DNA from: a virus
Taxonomy: Duplodnaviria > Caudoviricetes
IMG/VR virus record: IMGVR_UViG_3300032893_000043
Location: 1 to 63,405 of that record
Direction: 5' to 3' (one strand)
Length of the DNA stretch: 63,405 nucleotides
The position numbers and the translations under genes were made by a program. This document shows, piece by piece, positions 3,292 to 46,841 of this stretch. The notes beneath the pieces are model-generated. The model did no database searches, had not been told where the DNA came from, and saw nothing but the letters and a program-made list of their open reading frames with translations. Position 1 is the first letter of the stretch, and the number at the start of each line of letters is the position of its first letter.

Positions 3292-4217
3292 CCACGCTGT
3301 TCGACTACCAGCAACAGGCGCAGCGCTTCCTTCGCGAGAAGAAGCAGGATCTGATCAACCCACAAGACTTGGTTGTTTACATCAACCGGGCGCGTCGCGA
3401 AGTCGCGATGCGAACGCAGTGCATTCGCGTTCTGACGCAGGTCAGCGCACCGATCGTCAGCGCAACTGTCATCACGCCAGGCTCGGGTTATAGCAATCTT
3501 CCGGTGATCGCGATCACGCCGCCGGATTTTCCGAGCGGCACGGGAGCGTTTCCGAATGGCGCGCAAGCGACGGCGCAGGCCATCGTGCAGAATGGGACGA
3601 TCGCCGCGGTCGACATCGTCAATGGCGGCTCGGGGTATTTTCAGCCGCTGGCGACGGTGACGGATTCGACGGGGACTGGTGCGTCGATATCGCTTTATAC
3701 GGGGCCGGTGAATCAGCTCAACGTGGCCCAAGAAGTCTACCCGTTTTCCGGCGTGTATCTTGGTGCAAATCCCGGCGTCAAATCAGTATTTGCGGTGCAG
3801 GGCATCAGTGTTATCTATCAAAATTACCGGTATTCGCTGCCAGTGTATAGCTTTACCGACTATCAAGCGATGATTCGGCAGTATCCGTTCCAATATCAAT
3901 ACGTTCCTACATTTGCTTCGCAGTACGGGCAAGGCACTTCCGGCTCTTTTTACGTCTATCCGTTACCGAGCCAAGTGTATCAATACGAGCTTGATTGTTA
4001 TTGTTTGCCTTCTGATCTCGCAACTAATAACGATTTTGAAGTAATACCTGACCCTTGGACCGACTCGGTTTCGTATTTCTCAGCGCATCTGGGAATGCTC
4101 GACATTCAGAATATGAACGCGGCAAAAATGTACTTGGAGTTGTTTGAAAAGCAGCTTGGCATTTACTCGCATTCCGCGCGTATCGGCCGGCGGGTCAACA
4201 TCTATGGAAGATATTAA
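3288..4217 (+). CDS. Head-tail adaptor-like protein (paralog 2) with inserted GSGY beta domain
   Basis: YINRAR and IPDPWTDSVSYFSA align with paralog 1; ATGA overlap. Confidence 0.65.
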   Translation: MTTLFDYQQQAQRFLREKKQDLINPQDLVVYINRARREVAMRTQCIRVLTQVSAPIVSATVITPGSGYSNLPVIAITPPDFPSGTGAFPNGAQATAQAIVQNGTIAAVDIVNGGSGYFQPLATVTDSTGTGASISLYTGPVNQLNVAQEVYPFSGVYLGANPGVKSVFAVQGISVIYQNYRYSLPVYSFTDYQAMIRQYPFQYQYVPTFASQYGQGTSGSFYVYPLPSQVYQYELDCYCLPSDLATNNDFEVIPDPWTDSVSYFSAHLGMLDIQNMNAAKMYLELFEKQLGIYSHSARIGRRVNIYGRY

Positions 4218-38266: not shown

Positions 38267-40579
38267 ATGTCCCTCATTGAATACGCTCTGCAATACGCCG
38301 GCCGTGGCTGGCATGTGTTCCCGCTCCGTCCTCGCGCCAAGCTTCCGTTACTCTCCAAAAAGTCCGGCGGTAAGGGTTTTCACGACGCCACGTCGGATCC
38401 CGGCCAAGTCACCGCCTGGTGGTCGCGGGCGCCCCAAGCCAATATCGGGCTCGCAACCGGCGCGTCCGGCCTCGTGGTGCTCGACGCCGATGGACCAGCG
38501 GGGTTAGCGCAGCTTAAAGAGCTCGCGGCGCCGCACGGCGGCTTACTTCGCACGCTGACGGCGCGCACCGGGCGCGAAGGCGGGTTCCACCTGTACTACC
38601 GCGGAACGGGTATAGCCAGCTGGCAGGACAACCGCAAAGGCGACACCAAGCAATGGCATTTCGACATCCGCGGCTCCACCGGTTATGTGATCCTGCCGCC
38701 CTCGATCCACCCCAGCGGCGCGCAGTACGCGTGGGTCGACGCGGCGCAGCCGATCGCCGAGGCGCCGGCCTGGCTCGGCCCCCTCCTTGCCTCGCTCCGC
38801 GGTTCCGTGCACACTGCGGCCGCGGGCAATCCCGCCCGTGACACTGAAACGCTTGCGGCCTTGAGCCCGTCTGCCCCGTCGTCCCGGACGGTGCCGGCGG
38901 GCTCTTTTGCGTCCGGACGCGGGCTTGCGGCCCGCTCGGTCGCGAACCTCAGTTCCGGGCCTGCTTTCAGCGAATCCGAGGCCGATCGTCTGTTTTCGGC
39001 ACTATCGGCGATAGACGCCGCAACCGATGGCGCGACCTGGGCCAGCTACGGCGCGGCGCTGCACGATCTGAAGTGGATTGTGAACGGTGTCGACGAAGGC
39101 TTTGAAATTTTTGATGAATGGTCTAGCACCTCGACAGGTAAGGGTCCGGGTAATGGGGAGTACAAAGGTCGCGCGGACCTAGAGAAGCGCTGGGTCAGTT
39201 TTGATAAGGAATACAACGGAGTACGCAAGACAATTGCGTCAATTTATAAGGACGCAATGGATCGCGGGTGGCAATACGATCCAACACCGCCGCAAGAGCA
39301 AAAAGTCAACGGCAACCATAGCTTAGAAGTCTTACCTCCCACATTTCAACAAGCGGCGTTCGCAAGCCCGATCATCTGGCCCGATCGCGACCAGTGGGGG
39401 CGGCCCAAAGCGACCTGCCGCAATGCCCGCGCCGCCATTCGGCACATGGGCCTGACATGCGAGCACGACCGGTTTCACGACAAGTTGATCATCGGCGGAC
39501 AGGCGATCGAGCAATGGGCCGGCGAACTCACGGACAACACGACGCACATGCTCCGGGTCACCATCGCCCAGCGATACAATCTCGATCCGGGCAACACCAA
39601 CACTTTCGACGCCGCGGTCCAGGAATGCCTGCAGGACAGCTTTGATCCGGTTGCCGACTATCTCGACGGGTTGACTTGGGATGGCGTGCCAAGGCTCCGC
39701 ACTTGGCTTGCGACCTACATGGGCGCCGCGGACACGCCGTTAAATGCCGCCATTGGGGGCCTGATCCTGATTGCGGCCGTGCGCCGCGTGCGGCAACCCG
39801 GATGCAAATTCGACCAGATCCTCGTGCTTGAAGGCCCGGAAGGGCGCGGCAAGTCGTCGGCGATCGAGATTTTGGCGGGCCAAGAGAACTTTTCGGACCA
39901 GACGATATTGACCGCCGACGACAAGGGCCAGCAAGAAGCAATCAGCGGCGTGTGGCTTTACGAGATCGCGGACCTGGCCGGCATGTCAAAGGCCGACACC
40001 GAGAAGGTCAAGGCGTTTTGTTCCAGGACCGTGGATCGCGCGCGGCCGGCTTACGGGCGCACCAGGCAGGACAAGCCGCGGCGCTGTGTCTTCATTGCGA
40101 CGACGAACCACGCGACGTTCCTCAAATCGCAAACCGGCAATCGGCGGTTCTGGCCGGTCCAAACGGGCAGGGTTGACCTGGAAGCGTTGCGGCGAGACCG
40201 GGACCAGCTTTGGGCGGAAGCCAACGCGATCGAGCGGCGCGGCGTGTCGCTGTTCTTGCCGGAAGGGCTTTGGCAAGAGGCCGCGGCGATACAGGACGCG
40301 CGGCGCGACGCGGACCCGTGGGAAGACATTCTAGCAGACGTCGAAACGCATAAAGCGACGTCGAAAAAACCGGCGGCAGACGGGCACGGAATGGAGTACC
40401 GGATCACAAGCCGGGACGTGCTGGAAACCGTGCTTAGACTGCCTTTGGACAAGCTGAATGATGTAACTGCGAAACGGGCCGCGCTGGCACTTCGAAGGCT
40501 CGGATGGGACGGACCAAAGCCATTGCGAAGCGAAAAAATTGTGGCGAAAGGTTTTACAAAAAAAGCAGAAGACGTGTAA
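38267..40579 (+). CDS. Primase-polymerase / PriCT-2 / VirE-type helicase fusion
   Basis: GWHVFPL, ANIGLATG..LVVLDAD, GFHLYY; PGCKFD, LEGPEGRGKS Walker A, TGNRRFWPV. Confidence 0.9.
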   Translation: MSLIEYALQYAGRGWHVFPLRPRAKLPLLSKKSGGKGFHDATSDPGQVTAWWSRAPQANIGLATGASGLVVLDADGPAGLAQLKELAAPHGGLLRTLTARTGREGGFHLYYRGTGIASWQDNRKGDTKQWHFDIRGSTGYVILPPSIHPSGAQYAWVDAAQPIAEAPAWLGPLLASLRGSVHTAAAGNPARDTETLAALSPSAPSSRTVPAGSFASGRGLAARSVANLSSGPAFSESEADRLFSALSAIDAATDGATWASYGAALHDLKWIVNGVDEGFEIFDEWSSTSTGKGPGNGEYKGRADLEKRWVSFDKEYNGVRKTIASIYKDAMDRGWQYDPTPPQEQKVNGNHSLEVLPPTFQQAAFASPIIWPDRDQWGRPKATCRNARAAIRHMGLTCEHDRFHDKLIIGGQAIEQWAGELTDNTTHMLRVTIAQRYNLDPGNTNTFDAAVQECLQDSFDPVADYLDGLTWDGVPRLRTWLATYMGAADTPLNAAIGGLILIAAVRRVRQPGCKFDQILVLEGPEGRGKSSAIEILAGQENFSDQTILTADDKGQQEAISGVWLYEIADLAGMSKADTEKVKAFCSRTVDRARPAYGRTRQDKPRRCVFIATTNHATFLKSQTGNRRFWPVQTGRVDLEALRRDRDQLWAEANAIERRGVSLFLPEGLWQEAAAIQDARRDADPWEDILADVETHKATSKKPAADGHGMEYRITSRDVLETVLRLPLDKLNDVTAKRAALALRRLGWDGPKPLRSEKIVAKGFTKKAEDV

Positions 40580-42639: not shown

Positions 42640-42656
42640 GTAGTAGCCGCGACTAC
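42640..42656. promoter_or_regulatory. Operator GTAGT-N7-ACTAC (copy 1)
   Basis: GTAGTagccgcgACTAC upstream of the RAMP-like gene. Confidence 0.75.
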
Positions 42657-42703
42657 GCGAGCCGTGCTACATCGCTTCGACGCACTCAAAAAGGAGACGC
42701 ATC

Positions 42704-43333
42704 GTGGCCGAGCGCACAATCGAAATTCCCGAAATCAAACTTGATCGCATGACCGTGAACGTCGTTGGTACGTCTCCGCTGCTAACCAATCGCTTCGGCG
42801 AGAACGCGATTGCTTCGATCGAGAACAAACAGCAGAAAAAAGCGAAGGGTGTGAAGGAGGCGCGCGATCCCGAGGCGGAATTTCTTGAGAAGCTGCACGT
42901 CATAAAGGCTGGCAAGACACCGTTGGAAGGTACGTTCGGTTATCCGTCGATCGGTATCAAAAAATGCCTGGTGGTTGCCGGCGGCCGTTTTGCCGACGAA
43001 AAAATGACGCATCTACGCGGCGCCATCAACATTCTTGGAAGCTTGATCGAGATTCGATCGCCGGCTCCGACGATGCGTACCGACACTGTTCGTTTGCAGG
43101 GTGGCGTCACTAGCATCGCCTATCGCCCGCAGTTTTGGCCGTGGGAGATGGAAATACCGGTCGTGTTTAACGCCGGCATTATCGGCCCTGCGCAGATTCT
43201 CAACCTTTTCCAGATTGCTGGATTTGCTGTAGGCTTCGGCGCGTGGCGTCCCGAGCTGAACGGCGTGTTCGGTCAATTTGTTTTGAAGAATTCCGGCGAG
43301 GTCTCGACGAAAGAGAAGACCAAGGCGGGATAA
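42704..43333 (+). CDS. RAMP/Cas7-like RNA-binding protein (Vipr-like effector)
   Basis: N-terminal VxGTSPLLxNRF strand, YPSIGIKKC, and C-terminal Gly-rich loop AGFAVGFGAWRPELNGVFGQF; AGGAG RBS; directly followed by the periodic array. Confidence 0.7.
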   Translation: MAERTIEIPEIKLDRMTVNVVGTSPLLTNRFGENAIASIENKQQKKAKGVKEARDPEAEFLEKLHVIKAGKTPLEGTFGYPSIGIKKCLVVAGGRFADEKMTHLRGAINILGSLIEIRSPAPTMRTDTVRLQGGVTSIAYRPQFWPWEMEIPVVFNAGIIGPAQILNLFQIAGFAVGFGAWRPELNGVFGQFVLKNSGEVSTKEKTKAG

Positions 43334-43336
43334 AAA

Positions 43337-43792
43337 GCCAAGAGCAGAGTCGATTTGATAGGCGTTGCACAGACCATAAGACCGCAGACGCGATGCAGAA
43401 AAGTACGGCAAACACCAGATGTGCTTTGCAAGGACGTGAGGTCAACTGAAGCGAAAAGTTTATTTTGTTGGTTTGCCAAAAGAGGAGTGCAGCACGGAAT
43501 AGTCAGGACAAGTCCTGCAGCGATGTTAGTTGAAATGAAAAGTTTAATCCATTTGCCATGTGAAAAGAGCAGCCGCGTGAACATGTGACACGACGACACC
43601 AGATGTTACCGGAATAGAAATGAAAAGTTTGTTTGATCCATTTGCCAGAAGAGAACACTCGATGTGCGGCGCTTTGCGTTGAGGCGATAGGAAAACACAA
43701 CAAATGAAAAGTTTCATTTTTGATTTGGCAGAAGAGAACAATAGCTGTGCAGCGTTTTGAGTCGATAGCAGTTGCAAACAAATGAAGTGAAA
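43337..43792 (+). ncRNA. Array of six pentamer-periodic tracts (xG[A/C/T]-NN); putative guide RNAs
   Basis: Tracts at 43341, 43397, 43481, 43561, 43650 and 43733, each of 11-14 pentamers; tracts 2-5 end in GAAAAGTTT and are followed by a T-rich..TTTG[C/G]CA linker. Confidence 0.8.
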
Positions 43793-44850
43793 TGTCTATT
43801 TCTCTCAAAGAGTATTTCGCGCTCGCCGGCTCTAATTTCACAAACGACGATGCTAGGGTCATTGGGCCGGTACTGCAAGAATTGGTGCACGCCGGGCAGT
43901 CGCGACCAAACGAGATTGTCGACGCCGCGCGCTCGACGAATTCCCCGCTGCACGAATATTTCGAGTGGAATGACCAGCGCGCTGGGCAGCTGTATCGCGA
44001 AGGCCAGGCCCGCGACATGGTGCAGGCTATTCGCGTCCGCGTCGTTCCGCGCGAGCAACCCAAAGAACCGCGGCAGTATAAAGTTACGGTTCAGAAGACA
44101 GAGTGGAACACCCTGAGCGACGTCACCGTTCGTAACGAGATCGATGTTCTTGATGGCGCGAGTCTGGCGCTACGCGCGCTTGACGAATGGATACGAGTAT
44201 TCGGTACGCTGGCACAAGCCAAGGAAGTTGCTGATATCTTGCAGCCGATCCTTAATCAGATTTCTGAATTTAAAGAGGAATGTCGCGGCGAGATCCCACC
44301 GAATGACGTGGTTGCGGTTTTTCAAGATTTGCAGCAGATCGAGCAAGCTTGTCAGAAGCTGATCGGGCTACGTGACTATGGCGAGCAGACACAGTATCTG
44401 ATTGAAGCGATCGACGATGCGTGGAAGGCGTATGGGCAGCTGGTTGAAGATAAGAAAGCGCGCTTGACGGTTGTCGAACAGGAGAACGAGGAGCTACGCG
44501 AGAAGATCGATTTTTTGGAGCGCTTGTTTATTGGCGACCAGCTTATGCCTCGGCAATTGCGGCTGACGAAGCAGGAAGGCAAAGTTGTTGGTGCGTTGCT
44601 AAACAACAAGACGGTGAACCGTGAAGCCATCCACTATATTTTGTATTCGGACAAACCGGATGCTGACGAGGCGGACATTAAGATTGTTGACGTTCTGGTT
44701 TGTAAAATTCGTCCGAAGCTAGACCGGTTCGGCATCAAGATCGAAAGCCTTTGGGGCGTAGGTTACCAGATGCCTGATGACTCGCGTAAGCGGCTGCAAG
44801 GTTTGATCGAGGCTGACAAATCGCACCCGCTTGAGGAAGGGATGATCTAA
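43792..44850 (+). CDS. Array-associated protein fused to a CtrA/OmpR-like winged-helix domain
   Basis: N-terminal IVDAAR..SPLHEYFEWND..YR..QAR domain; C-terminal LTKQE..KIVDVLVCKIRPKL..IESLWGVGY. Confidence 0.7.
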   Translation: MSISLKEYFALAGSNFTNDDARVIGPVLQELVHAGQSRPNEIVDAARSTNSPLHEYFEWNDQRAGQLYREGQARDMVQAIRVRVVPREQPKEPRQYKVTVQKTEWNTLSDVTVRNEIDVLDGASLALRALDEWIRVFGTLAQAKEVADILQPILNQISEFKEECRGEIPPNDVVAVFQDLQQIEQACQKLIGLRDYGEQTQYLIEAIDDAWKAYGQLVEDKKARLTVVEQENEELREKIDFLERLFIGDQLMPRQLRLTKQEGKVVGALLNNKTVNREAIHYILYSDKPDADEADIKIVDVLVCKIRPKLDRFGIKIESLWGVGYQMPDDSRKRLQGLIEADKSHPLEEGMI

Positions 44851-44884
44851 AATAATATCTCCCCGGTAGTTGCCACCACTACAA
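44851..44884 (+). repeat. 34-bp direct repeat copy 1 (contains operator copy 2, 44866-44882)
   Basis: 33/34 identical to 45943..45976. Confidence 0.9.
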
Positions 44885-44905
44885 ACAGTCTGGTACTCTC
44901 GTAAA

Positions 44906-45943
44906 ATGTCGCTGGCTTACTACAACGAGATCGACCCATACTGTGCGCAGTGGCTGCGAAATCTCATCGCAAAAAATCTGATCGCGCCCGGTGTGGTCGA
45001 TGAAAGGTCGATCCTTGATGTCAAACCTTACGAGCTCGAACCCTACACCCAGTGCCACTTCTTCGCCGGTATCGGCGGATGGTCTTACGCATTGCGACTC
45101 GCGGGTGTTGCCGATCATCGAGAAATTTGGACTGGAAGTTGTCCTTGCCAGCCTTTCTCCACGGCAGGCCGCCGCCGCGGGTTTGATGACGAGCGACACT
45201 TGTGGCCATACTGGAGATATCTCATTGCGCAGCGACGTCCTCCAACAATCTTTGGAGAGCAGGTTGCGTCGGCAGCTGACTGGCTCCGACTTGTGCGAAG
45301 TGACCTGGAAGCCCTGGACTACGCCGTGGGGGCAGTCCCTATCGAAGCCGCGAGCGCGGGTGCGGACCACCTTAGAGATCGGTTCTGGTTTATGGCCTAC
45401 CATACGCGCCAACAAGTGGGGGCCGCCGGACAGTCACGGGAACGTAGCGATGTGGCCCACAGCAGCAGCAGCACGCGATTACAGGAGCGAGAGCGCGACG
45501 GAGGAATTCAACGAGAAACACTGGGCGCACAGCCGCGGCAAGACGTTGCCAATGCAGGCGCTGCACGCGACATGGGCGACGCCAACTTCTTTGAGCGGTG
45601 GTTCGGAAACCAGCAATCCGCCTGGCAACAGCCGGAACAACAACGAGATCAGACGCCACGCTTTGTGGGCAACGGCAGCTGCCCAGGAGGCGGGCGGAAC
45701 GGCGGAACAGTTTTTGGAACGCAAGCGCAAGGCAGTGGCGAACGGCTCGACATTGGGCGTCAGTCTGACGAGCCTGAACCTTCAGGCTGGATCATCGGTG
45801 CCGACGGAAAAGCGCGGCGCGTTAAATCCGGAATTCGTTTGCTGGTTGATGGGTTTCCCAATCGCGTGGGTCTCCTGCGGGGTTTCGGTAACGCGATTGA
45901 CCCGCGGCCGGCGGCGCAATTCATCAAAGCCGCGCTCGACTGA
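44906..45943 (+). CDS. DNA cytosine-C5 methyltransferase
   Basis: FFAGIGG (I), SCPCQPFS (IV), GEQV (VI), HLRDR (VIII), GFGNAI (X). Confidence 0.9.
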   Translation: MSLAYYNEIDPYCAQWLRNLIAKNLIAPGVVDERSILDVKPYELEPYTQCHFFAGIGGWSYALRLAGVADHREIWTGSCPCQPFSTAGRRRGFDDERHLWPYWRYLIAQRRPPTIFGEQVASAADWLRLVRSDLEALDYAVGAVPIEAASAGADHLRDRFWFMAYHTRQQVGAAGQSRERSDVAHSSSSTRLQERERDGGIQRETLGAQPRQDVANAGAARDMGDANFFERWFGNQQSAWQQPEQQRDQTPRFVGNGSCPGGGRNGGTVFGTQAQGSGERLDIGRQSDEPEPSGWIIGADGKARRVKSGIRLLVDGFPNRVGLLRGFGNAIDPRPAAQFIKAALD

Positions 45944-46208: not shown

Positions 46209-46841
46209 ATGTCCCTTTACGAAACTCTCGATCTCACTAGCGACCCGCCGCCCGACGCCGCAGCCATTAAGCGCGCTTACAAGCGCAAGGCCAAAATGAC
46301 CCATCCCGACCGCGGTGGCAAAGTCGAAGATTTCCAGAAAGTCTCGCGCGCTTATCTCGTGCTTAGCGATCCCGTGCGTCGCGCCAAGTACGACGCGACG
46401 GGAGACATCCCCGAGATCACGCCGGAAACGGCCCCGCTGAATTTGCTGGTGCAGTTCTTCGTGACCGTGGTGCAGATGCATTGCGCCGGTCAGGGGCCGG
46501 ATCCGCTGACCACCGATCTGATCAAGCTGGCGCGCGACCAGTTCAAGACCGACATTGCCAACGCCGAGAAGGAGATCGTCAAGATCAAGCGCAGCATCAA
46601 GGTGTGGCAGAAGGTCGAAGCGAAGTTTGGCAAGGCCAAGAAGGGCGCGATGCCGGTGACGATCAAGCGCGCGATGTTGGCGCAAGTGGCGCCGCTCGAA
46701 GCGCATTTGCAGACCATGCAGAGCCAGATCGAGCTGCGCAACGACGCGATGAAGTTGCTTGACGGCTACACGTTCGATTTCGATGCGTCTCCGGCCACGC
46801 CTACGAATTTGTCGGGAAGCTGGATACGCTTCACGAGTTAA
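46209..46841 (+). CDS. DnaJ-domain protein
   Basis: LYETL..IKRAYKRKAKMTHPDRGG..AYLVLSDP..R..YD. Confidence 0.9.
   Translation: MSLYETLDLTSDPPPDAAAIKRAYKRKAKMTHPDRGGKVEDFQKVSRAYLVLSDPVRRAKYDATGDIPEITPETAPLNLLVQFFVTVVQMHCAGQGPDPLTTDLIKLARDQFKTDIANAEKEIVKIKRSIKVWQKVEAKFGKAKKGAMPVTIKRAMLAQVAPLEAHLQTMQSQIELRNDAMKLLDGYTFDFDASPATPTNLSGSWIRFTS

What the first reader, a model, noticed from the sequence alone, without database searches (positions are those of the whole stretch)
43650..43792. Tracts 5 and 6 decode to two variants of the IS1-family catalytic motif
Seen: tract at 43650, NN = GA CT TG GG TT GT GG TA AA CA AA, compatible with E-L-W-G-F-V-G-Y-K-Q-K; tract at 43733, NN = GA AT TG AG TT GT TA GT AA AA, compatible with E-I-W-S-F-V-Y-V-K-K. 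Established: IS1-family transposases have DE[LIMQ]W[SG][FY]V[GY]xK at the first catalytic Asp. Two tracts hit the same motif in codon phase with family-typical substitutions, which supports the gapped code, although they may share an ancestor. Inference: the phage uses RNA-guided silencing against insertion sequences or transposase-bearing satellites, a target class I do not recall being described for such systems.
Basis: partly seen in the sequence, partly recalled or inferred. Interest (0 to 1): 0.96.

Follow-up and report, generated by a model that had tools for sequence, protein, structure and literature searches.

The report
Phage VIPR guides target IS1 transposases
Two guide RNAs in this phage's VIPR locus, a recently described CRISPR-like system that pairs two bases and skips one, spell the conserved catalytic motif of an IS1-family transposase gene, so the phage probably silences a jumping gene.

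Summary
Window 42704-44850 is a VIPR locus, a kind of system first described in 2026 preprints. It holds a 209-aa Vipr RAMP protein, six tandem pentanucleotide tracts and a winged-helix accessory gene. The repeat unit is a non-canonical N-G-H scaffold plus two information-free NN bases.

Under the published 1-nt-skip rule they match IS1-family transposase genes at the DE.W.FV motif, in codon phase.
- T6 matches 20/20 informative bases in 8 metagenome contigs, and 6 of those 8 sites are IS1-like genes encoding DEIWSFVYVK.
- T5 reaches only 19/22, with no perfect match in three collections.

Two related phages carry different guides, 20/20 and 19/20, against two other conserved motifs of the same gene.

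The target is a real insertion sequence. One genome holds four copies of about 2.5 kb with inverted repeats and 7-bp target duplications. The family also occurs on 286 viral contig stretches.

Expression, binding and silencing are untested. The system is known; the target class appears new in the main texts I searched.

The parts
42704..43333 (+). vipr: 209-aa RAMP (Cas7-like) protein, the vrRNA-binding filament subunit
   Evidence: phmmer hit to PDB 36pp_D 'SUSP1 Vipr protein', E 5.6e-4, residues 134-192. phrog_4652, E 8.8e-19. AF2 model pLDDT 78; Foldseek top hits are Csm3/Cmr4/Cas7-11, prob 1.00.
43334..43822 (+). vrRNA array: six pentanucleotide tracts separated by a conserved element of about 33 nt (consensus TGAAATGAAAAGTTT..CCATTTGCCA..AGAG)
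   Evidence: No Rfam family and no tRNA.
43336..43400 (+). Tract 1 (13 units). Its NN are conserved in related phages L001 and L002. Target not found.
   Evidence: Exact scan of viral contigs gave 0 hits.
43417..43456 (+). Tract 2 (8 units, short). Target not found.
43481..43535 (+). Tract 3 (11 units). Target not found.
43566..43620 (+). Tract 4 (11 units). Target not found.
43640..43709 (+). Tract 5 guide. NN = TG GA GA CT TG GG TT GT GG TA AA CA AA AA, compatible with C-D-E-L-W-G-F-V-G-Y-K-Q-K-N. Matches the G-type IS1-like motif.
   Evidence: Best 19/22 and 23/26. No perfect match in three collections.
43723..43792 (+). Tract 6 guide. NN = TG GA GA AT TG AG TT GT TA GT AA (AA AG AA), compatible with C-D-E-I-W-S-F-V-Y-V-K. 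Matches the Y-type IS1-like motif. Its 3' conserved element is degenerate and overlaps the vap start codon.
   Evidence: 20/20 exact in 8 metagenome contigs, 6 of them IS1-like genes. 22/22 over 11 units in L122. 19/20 in L061 and L027.
43792..44850 (+). Likely vap (vipr accessory protein): 352 aa with a C-terminal winged helix
   Evidence: Pfam Trans_reg_C, E 4.3e-6, 27.1 bits against cut-off 26.2, residues 255-327. PDB 2m1b_A, E 9e-4. The same gene follows the array in L001, L002 and L004.

Best explanation
Window 42704-44850 is a VIPR (Viral Interference Programmable Repeat) locus in a complete 63.4-kb phage genome. It comprises vipr, an array of six vrRNAs and a winged-helix vap gene.

Each vrRNA tract is a run of 5-nt units. 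The N-G-H trinucleotide is held by Vipr protomers. The two free NN bases pair with DNA, skipping every third target base.

Tracts 5 and 6 are diverged duplicates. Their NN bases spell, in codon phase with the wobble base skipped, the C-D-E-x-W-x-F-V-[G/Y]-x-K stretch of an IS1-family DDE transposase gene. T5 fits the G variant and T6 the Y variant.

The target gene belongs to a cargo-carrying insertion sequence of about 2.5 kb. It is common in Alphaproteobacteria and also found on many viral contigs.

Inferred, not shown: the Vipr-vrRNA filament binds this site and blocks transcription of the transposase. This would limit the IS's activity, such as insertion into or hitch-hiking on the phage, in the infected cell. 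Skipping the wobble base and aiming at the most conserved motif would let one guide cover many diverged family members.
For: System identity:
- Vipr hit to the SUSP1 Vipr structure and a RAMP fold.
- Period-5 units with hypervariable NN.
- vap with a winged helix.
- A phage record with direct terminal repeats.
- Published VIPR description, read in named sections of bioRxiv 10.64898/2026.04.26.720920 and 10.64898/2026.04.26.720927.

Target:
- An unbiased T5 scan with up to 3 mismatches in 401 genomes gave 5 hits against 2 for the reversed control. Two of the 5 were the DE.W site of IS1-family genes.
- T6 was scored on loci chosen without reference to it. It reached 18/20, and 0 of 200 and 0 of 100 shuffled guides reached that.
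- The T6 exact scan gave 8 hits, 6 in IS1-like ORFs encoding DEIWSFVYVK.
- T6 is at least 80% identical to 45 of 107 family members and T5 to 7 of 107.
- Tracts 1-4 give no signal on the same loci.

Convergence: L001 and L002 (Vipr 91% identical) carry a guide matching 20/20 the antisense of RRFTRLTNAF (at least 16/20 in 98 and 91 hits). They carry another matching 19/20 FYNFCRIH (35 and 31 hits), also.

The target is an insertion sequence:
- Four copies in G381 with about 19-bp inverted repeats (17/19) and 7-bp target duplications.
- PGAP label 'IS1 family transposase'.

No self-target and no IS copy in the five VIPR phage records examined.
Against: - T5 has no perfect match in viral, genome or metagenome contigs. 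Its unit TA occurs in 0 of 107 family members, and its best score is 19/22.
- T6's unit GT occurs in 0 of 107 members of the first sample and was found only in the metagenome scan.
- Single-locus 18/20 hits arise by chance in an all-window scan, 7-9 per array. The case therefore rests on multiplicity, phase and the a-priori guides.
- T5 and T6 share ancestry, so they are not two independent hits.
- No conserved secondary structure was found in the inter-tract element. Single-tract folds are no better than shuffles.
- T6's 3' element is degenerate.
- The host is unknown, and it is not shown that the host carries this IS.
- The mismatch tolerance of this Vipr is unknown.
- NCBIfam transpos_IS1 scores are below its cut-off: 67.8 and 62.4 against 100.
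Confidence: 0.75

Rival explanations
1. The adversary is not the IS itself but a mobile element that carries it or uses its transposase. This could be a rival prophage, a plasmid or a satellite-like element whose mobility depends on this DDE enzyme. The case would parallel SUSP1 VIPR, which immobilises a satellite by targeting its recombinase.
For: - 286 viral-contig stretches encode a relative of the gene. In 27 of the 80 kept loci the gene lies within 4 kb of a contig end (locus lengths).
- Neighbours include HTH+Peptidase_M78 regulators (33 loci), ParA-like genes (46 loci) and a P63C gene.
- Precedent: abstract and section list of bioRxiv 10.64898/2026.10.15.759431.
Against: - In G381 the mobile unit is a 2.5-kb IS with its own inverted repeats and target duplications, and the variable gene lies inside it.
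- No phage structural genes were seen next to it in the one viral locus annotated, L061.
- Tracts 1-4 and the other guides of L001 and L002 do not hit the flanks of the 111 loci.
Confidence: 0.15
2. T5 and T6 are decaying duplicates of a once-functional guide and no longer act.
For: - T5 has no perfect target.
- T6 lacks one unit relative to T5, and its 3' element is degenerate and overlaps vap.
Against: - T6 keeps 11 consecutive units perfectly matched to natural genes.
- The T5/T6 differences track two real subfamily variants, Y 71 and G 24 of 107.
- The last tract overlaps the vap start in L001 and L002 too, and there it matches its target 20/20.
Confidence: 0.07
3. Chance, or hindsight motif matching. 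Alternatively, the tracts are not guides at all but small ORFs, protein-binding pentamer repeats of the TRAP type, or DNA iterons.
For: - Each unit begins with ATGAAAAG and could encode peptides of about 18-20 aa.
- Periodic purine-rich pentamers recall TRAP sites (recalled, not tested).
Against: - Indels between units shift the putative reading frames.
- The NN positions carry about 0 bits while G-H is fixed.
- Only one of 20 phase-by-skip combinations gives matches, and those fall on one site of one gene family.
- Shuffled guides do not reach the scores.
- 6 of 8 exact hits are in the same gene family.
Confidence: 0.03

Closest known systems
VIPR type II systems of Escherichia phage SUSP1 and a Pseudomonas fulva prophage (bioRxiv 10.64898/2026.04.26.720920 and 10.64898/2026.04.26.720927)
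   Same: - Small RAMP protein, tandem 5-nt repeat RNA with variable NN, and a conserved element after each tract.
- A DNA-binding vap gene, and a phage carrier.
- The 1-nt skip rule, with the skipped base on the codon wobble position and targets on either DNA strand.
   Different: - The scaffold is N-G-H instead of G-G-Y.
- The Asp that reads G1 in SUSP1 (D177) aligns to Ala180 here, while R138, W178 and R179 are kept (and the paper passage).
- Protein similarity is detectable only around the G-loop (E 5.6e-4).
- No predicted tail structure or pseudoknot.
- The predicted target is an IS transposase rather than a satellite or a prophage regulator.
Non-canonical VIPR arrays: NNNGG, YNNNG and NNNNG in 10.64898/2026.04.26.720920 (Methods section 20); WGT/NN and TGH/NN with about 10 repeats in 10.64898/2026.10.21.760802 (passages seen)
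   Same: A degenerate fixed trinucleotide with one conserved G, about 10 units per tract, and a Vipr-like fold next door.
   Different: I could not see those papers' figures or supplements, so I cannot say whether this clade is among their clusters. No targets are given for them in the passages read.
SUSP1 vrRNA targeting of the F5 satellite excision recombinase (10.64898/2026.10.15.759431; abstract, section 17 and searched passages read)
   Same: A guide in codon register on the mobility enzyme of a competing mobile element, with conservation across variants defeating synonymous escape.
   Different: There the enzyme is a satellite recombinase and the effect was shown by experiment. Here it is a DDE transposase of an IS and the link is in silico only.
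Class 1 CRISPR backbone proteins Cas7, Csm3 and Cmr4
   Same: RAMP fold: Foldseek prob 1.00, TM 0.38-0.53. Filament on a guide RNA with periodic base flipping (established knowledge).
   Different: - No CRISPR array and no other cas genes.
- 5-nt rather than 6-nt period.
- Two of five guide bases pair, instead of five of six.

Membership tests
VIPR system | Vipr protein: small (about 20 kDa) single-RRM RAMP with G-loop and thumb | tested here: met
   209 aa. phmmer to SUSP1 Vipr, E 5.6e-4, over the thumb-to-G-loop region with R141, W181 and R182 aligned to R138, W178 and R179. AF2 pLDDT 78, top Foldseek hits Csm3/Cmr4/Cas7-11. The Foldseek PDB copy (entries to 2026-04-08) listed no Vipr chain, so a direct fold comparison with Vipr was not possible.
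VIPR system | vrRNA of 9-16 tandem pentanucleotide units: fixed trinucleotide plus hypervariable NN | tested here: met
   Six tracts of 8-13 units. G in 50/64, H (A/C/T) in 63/64, NN 0.01 and 0.04 bit. Lag-5 identity 0.402. The scaffold is N-G-H, not canonical G-G-Y.
VIPR system | Canonical GGY scaffold | tested here: not met
   Position 1 of the trinucleotide is A 27, T 18, C 12, G 7. This fits the 'related consensus' variants that the papers report.
VIPR system | Targets obey the 1-nt skip rule, with the skip on the wobble position | tested here: met
   Only skip 1 in the NN phase gives matches, for 4 of 4 guides tested. All top matches are in codon phase.
VIPR system | Conserved, structured 3' tail after the tract | tested here: inconclusive
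   A conserved element of about 33 nt follows each tract. RNAalifold finds 0 pairs, and single folds have z between 0.06 and 1.72.
VIPR system | Adjacent vap gene with a DNA-interaction domain | tested here: met
   Trans_reg_C winged helix. The gene is conserved after the array in relatives. Homology to a named vap1-6 family was not testable.
VIPR system | vrRNAs expressed, bound by Vipr, and repressing their targets | not testable with these tools
   No RNA run is listed for this DNA.
IS1 family (the target gene) | DDE_Tnp_IS1 catalytic domain | tested here: met
   Pfam PF03400 scores 35.8 and 38.4 bits against cut-off 24.1 for L009 and L011. PGAP names relatives 'IS1 family transposase'.
IS1 family (the target gene) | NCBIfam transpos_IS1 equivalog score | tested here: not met
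   67.8 and 62.4 bits against cut-off 100. It is still the best-scoring family. This is a distant branch of the family.
IS1 family (the target gene) | Mobile unit with terminal inverted repeats, target-site duplication and multiple copies | tested here: met
   G381 holds 4 copies of about 2.52 kb, with inverted repeats 17/19 and 7-bp duplications. Two copies have exchanged flanks. Most genomes hold one match.

The most novel reading that the evidence does not exclude
A clade of wetland and soil phages uses VIPR as an anti-transposon defence. Its vap-proximal guides are aimed at three catalytic or conserved motifs of a cargo-carrying IS1-family element that habitually rides on phage genomes. 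The wobble-skipping code lets single guides cover a family whose members share only about 50% protein identity. This would be the first phage-encoded RNA-guided defence against insertion sequences.
Probability: 0.35. Interest if true: 0.75.

Novelty: new member of a known kind. Interest (0 to 1): 0.58.

Why it matters
VIPR was described only in 2026. Its known natural targets are phage satellites, prophage lysis-lysogeny regulators and other VIPR systems.

A phage clade that aims several guides at the conserved motifs of an insertion-sequence transposase would extend VIPR biology to conflict between phages and transposons. It would also give a natural example of how wobble-skipping buys family-wide coverage: T6 is at least 80% identical to 45 of 107 diverged members.

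The case further provides an in-silico validation of the 1-nt skip rule in a non-canonical N-G-H clade. It offers a structural rationale as well, since the G1-reading Asp is replaced by Ala.

The claim is directly testable with a reporter and a transposition assay.

Tried and rejected
- Rfam (gathering thresholds) and tRNA scans of the window: nothing.
- Tandem Repeats Finder: nothing, because the units are too diverged.
- Small-peptide coding for the units: rejected, because indels shift the frames.
- My first guess, that the IS1 match was chance and that the fixed and variable positions were the other way round, was wrong. It was dropped.
- Exact scans for tracts 1, 3 and 4 in viral contigs: 0 hits each.
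- Tract 1 with up to 3 mismatches in five IS-bearing viral records: 0 hits.
- One 18/22 hit of tract 1 in L038 lies in no long ORF. I judged it chance, p about 0.015 before correction for six guides.
- Consensus structure of the inter-tract element: none found.
- PHROG annotation of the L061 flanks: uninformative.
- Sequencing runs: no RNA holder listed. The only full holder is a wetland metagenome that may be the source.
- Tyrosine integrase in the phage: not found.
- Complex prediction, the protein atlas and the search of protein representatives were not used.
- Supplementary files of the VIPR preprints (data S3 target lists, fig. S10 and S17 logos) could not be seen. They may already list transposase targets or this clade.
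- Searches for print precedent. In 10.64898/2026.04.26.720920, 'transposase' occurs once, in 'Cas1-like transposase', and 'insertion sequence' and 'IS1' occur 0 times. In 10.64898/2026.10.15.759431, 'transposase', 'insertion sequence', 'IS1' and 'transposon' all occur 0 times. In 10.64898/2026.10.21.760802, 'transposase' occurs only in IS110/bridge RNA context in the 12 of 17 matched passages shown. In a library search for vrRNA/Vipr with transposase or insertion sequence, the only VIPR papers among the 15 listed of 1,361 matching papers were two of those above.

Full report
**What is at the coordinates.** The stretch 43334-43791 is intergenic. It lies between a 209-aa gene (42704-43333, +) and a 352-aa gene (43792-44850, +). 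It holds diverged repeats of about 83 nt with a marked 5-nt periodicity. Lag-5 identity is 0.402, against 0.207-0.299 for lags 1-4 and 6-9.

Laid out as x-G-h-N-N units, the six tracts have 8-13 units each. Over 64 units, position 2 is G in 50. Position 3 is A 43, C 15, T 5, G 1. The last two positions carry 0.01 and 0.04 bit.

**What system it is.** The upstream protein has one hit in the PDB sequence set, 'SUSP1 Vipr protein' (36pp_D, E 5.6e-4). That led to four 2026 preprints on VIPR systems.

As read in the Results and Discussion of 10.64898/2026.04.26.720920, VIPR consists of three parts:
- a RAMP protein of about 20 kDa;
- vrRNAs of 9-16 YNNGG units followed by a conserved tail;
- usually a DNA-binding vap gene.

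The NN bases pair with DNA under a '1 nt skip rule', with the skipped base mostly on the codon wobble position. Known natural targets are a satellite of phage SUSP1, Pseudomonas prophage regulators and other VIPR systems.

The Methods mention variant repeats NNNGG, YNNNG and NNNNG. Another preprint mentions WGT/NN and TGH/NN with ten repeats. The N-G-H/NN unit here is of that kind.

The structural preprint says that G1 of GGY is read by H17 and D177, G2 by R138 and W178, and Y3 by a pocket that includes R179. In the alignment, R138, W178 and R179 align to R141, W181 and R182. D177 aligns to Ala180, which is nearly invariant in 39 relatives. That fits the loss of the first G here. This last step is an inference.

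Other supporting points:
- An AF2 model (pLDDT 78) finds Csm3, Cmr4 and Cas7-11 as its best PDB matches (prob 1.00, TM 0.38-0.53).
- The downstream gene has a winged helix (Trans_reg_C), like the DNA-binding vaps described.
- The window is a complete virus record with direct terminal repeats.
- Relatives of Vipr at 61-91% identity lie in four viral contigs and two Lichenihabitans MAGs, and 173 close homologues exist in metagenomes.
- In tract 1, which the window shares with L001, the NN differ at 2 of 24 bases but the scaffold at 9 of 36 (read). This is what selection on the NN would give.

**Testing the IS1 claim.** T5 (20 specified bases) had 0 exact matches in viral, genome (185,579 species) and metagenome contigs. 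T6 had 0 in viral contigs.

A mismatch-tolerant scan was more informative. T5 (22 specified bases, up to 3 mismatches) in 401 genomes of the order holding the Lichenihabitans MAG gave 5 hits, against 2 for the reversed control. Two of the five are GAGCTTTGGTCG... (ELWSFVGKKQK) and GAGATTTGGGGC... (EIWGFVGAKQK). They lie inside ORFs of 308 and 298 aa that score above the Pfam DDE_Tnp_IS1 cut-off. NCBIfam transpos_IS1 is the best-scoring family but falls below its cut-off.

I then collected the family without reference to T6:
- 46 of 401 genomes have it, and 30 loci were fetched.
- 286 viral-contig stretches encode a relative, and 80 were kept.

On these loci T6 reaches 18/20 at the same site and in phase; 0 of 200 and 0 of 100 shuffled guides reach that. 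T5 reaches 19/22, matched by 0 of 200 and 1 of 100 shuffles. For T5 the first set is partly circular, because two of its loci came from the T5 scan. Tracts 1-4 give nothing above the null.

An all-phase seed-and-extend scan showed that both guides run one to two units further upstream, with NN TG, GA, GA reading C-D-E. T6 then reaches 19/20 in L061 and L027, and at least 16/20 in 20 hits on the 111 loci.

The shifted T6 pattern (20 specified bases) found 8 exact matches in metagenome contigs. Six are IS1-like ORFs reading DEIWSFVYVK, at least five of them distinct sequences. Two are in stop-filled frames, about what chance would give. In L122, eleven consecutive units match (22/22). The same pattern found 0 in viral contigs.

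- T6: 20/20, with 39 sites at 85% or more. The 20/20 is by construction, since L122-L129 were in that target set.
- T5: 19/22, with 3 such sites.
- The other 19 combinations: 18 or fewer matches, with 0-2 sites.

Over 107 family sites, T6 is at least 80% identical to 45 and T5 to 7. The family splits into a Y type (71) and a G type (24) at the residue where T6 has TA and T5 has GG.

**Convergent evidence from relatives.** The arrays of L001 and L002 (Vipr 91% identical) do not contain T5 or T6. Their last tract matches 20/20 the antisense strand of the family's RRFTRLTNAF motif, with at least 16/20 in 98 and 91 hits on the 111 loci. Their second-last tract matches 19/20 FYNFCRIH, with 35 and 31 hits. 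Both are positive only in the NN phase with skip 1.

Three phages thus aim their two vap-proximal guides at three different conserved motifs of one gene. None of the five VIPR phage records examined carries the gene, and the window has no self-target for either guide.

**What the target is.** In genome G381, four copies share an element of about 2.52 kb. It has terminal inverted repeats of about 19 bp (17/19 identical) and 7-bp target duplications. Two copies have swapped flanks, the mark of an inversion between them.

The element holds a small ORF of about 94 aa (seen in 85 of 111 loci), a variable middle gene, and the transposase. The middle gene is ParA-like in 46 loci and an HTH+Peptidase_M78 regulator in 33; a P63C-domain gene occupies this position in 7 loci.

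Relatives on plasmids of Mesorhizobium loti, Hoeflea, Acidiphilium multivorum and Sphingomonas are annotated 'IS1 family transposase'. The Acidiphilium copy matches T6 at 19/22.

The target is therefore a bona fide cargo-carrying insertion sequence from a distant branch of the IS1 family. It is common in Alphaproteobacteria and frequent on viral contigs. Nothing here shows that it is a satellite.

**Mechanism, and what is inferred.**
- Shown: the anatomy of the locus, the code, and the sequence relation to the transposase gene.
- Inferred from the published systems: the RNAs are made from the + strand, Vipr polymerises on them, and binding represses transcription.
- Inferred by me: the benefit to the phage is to curb an IS that tends to land on phage genomes. 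The phage has no tyrosine integrase, so protection during lysogeny is not the obvious setting.
- Open points: T5 has no perfect target, and its TA unit is seen in 0 of 107 members. The inter-tract element has no predicted structure. T6's 3' element overlaps the vap start, as the last tract also does in L001 and L002. The host is unknown, and no RNA data exist.

**Novelty.** The system is known, and this is a new member with a non-canonical scaffold of a kind already mentioned in print. I did not find an IS transposase as a natural VIPR target in the main texts searched.

Noticed in passing
L001:3935-3985 and 4009-4065; L002:4017-4067 and 4092-4150: Related phages carry guides matching two other conserved motifs of the same IS1-like gene. 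One matches FYNFCRIH on the sense strand (19/20). The other matches RRFTRLTNAF on the antisense strand (20/20).
   Followed up: yes
window 43336-43400; L001:3625-3690; L002:3625-3690: Tract 1 is shared by three phages. Between the window and L001 the NN are nearly unchanged (2 of 24 bases differ) while the scaffold bases vary (9 of 36). No target was found for it: 0 exact hits in viral contigs.
   Followed up: partly
L130:397-2925 (G381) and 110 further loci: The IS1-like element is an IS of about 2.5 kb with a conserved small ORF (annotated 'histone H1' in Mesorhizobium loti) and a variable middle gene. The middle gene is ParA-like or an HTH+Peptidase_M78 regulator, and a P63C-domain gene in some loci. 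What the cargo does is unknown.
   Followed up: partly
L132 and L133 (G381:C3): Two IS copies in inverted orientation have exchanged their 7-bp target duplications. This indicates a chromosomal inversion of about 360 kb by recombination between them.
   Followed up: no
window 43783-43822; L001 about 4070-4100: The conserved element after the last tract overlaps the start codon and first codons of the vap gene, in the window and in L001 and L002. This could couple vrRNA processing and vap translation.
   Followed up: no
window 42704-43333 (protein P0001): Homologues at about 30% identity are annotated 'hypothetical protein' in 27 Mycobacterium, 5 Gordonia and 2 Listonella phage records and 1 cyanophage record (35 records). 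These are possible VIPR loci in cultured phages with tractable hosts.
   Followed up: no
window 42640-42700: Just upstream of vipr there is a short run that looks weakly pentamer-like (AGCCG CGACT ACGCG AGCCG TGCTA...). It could be an upstream vrRNA, as in SUSP1. Lag-5 identity there is only 0.31.
   Followed up: no
window 38267-40579, 44870-45943, 46209-46841: Neighbouring phage genes: a Prim-Pol/VapE-like primase-helicase, a C-5 cytosine DNA methyltransferase directly after vap, and a DnaJ-domain protein.
   Followed up: no
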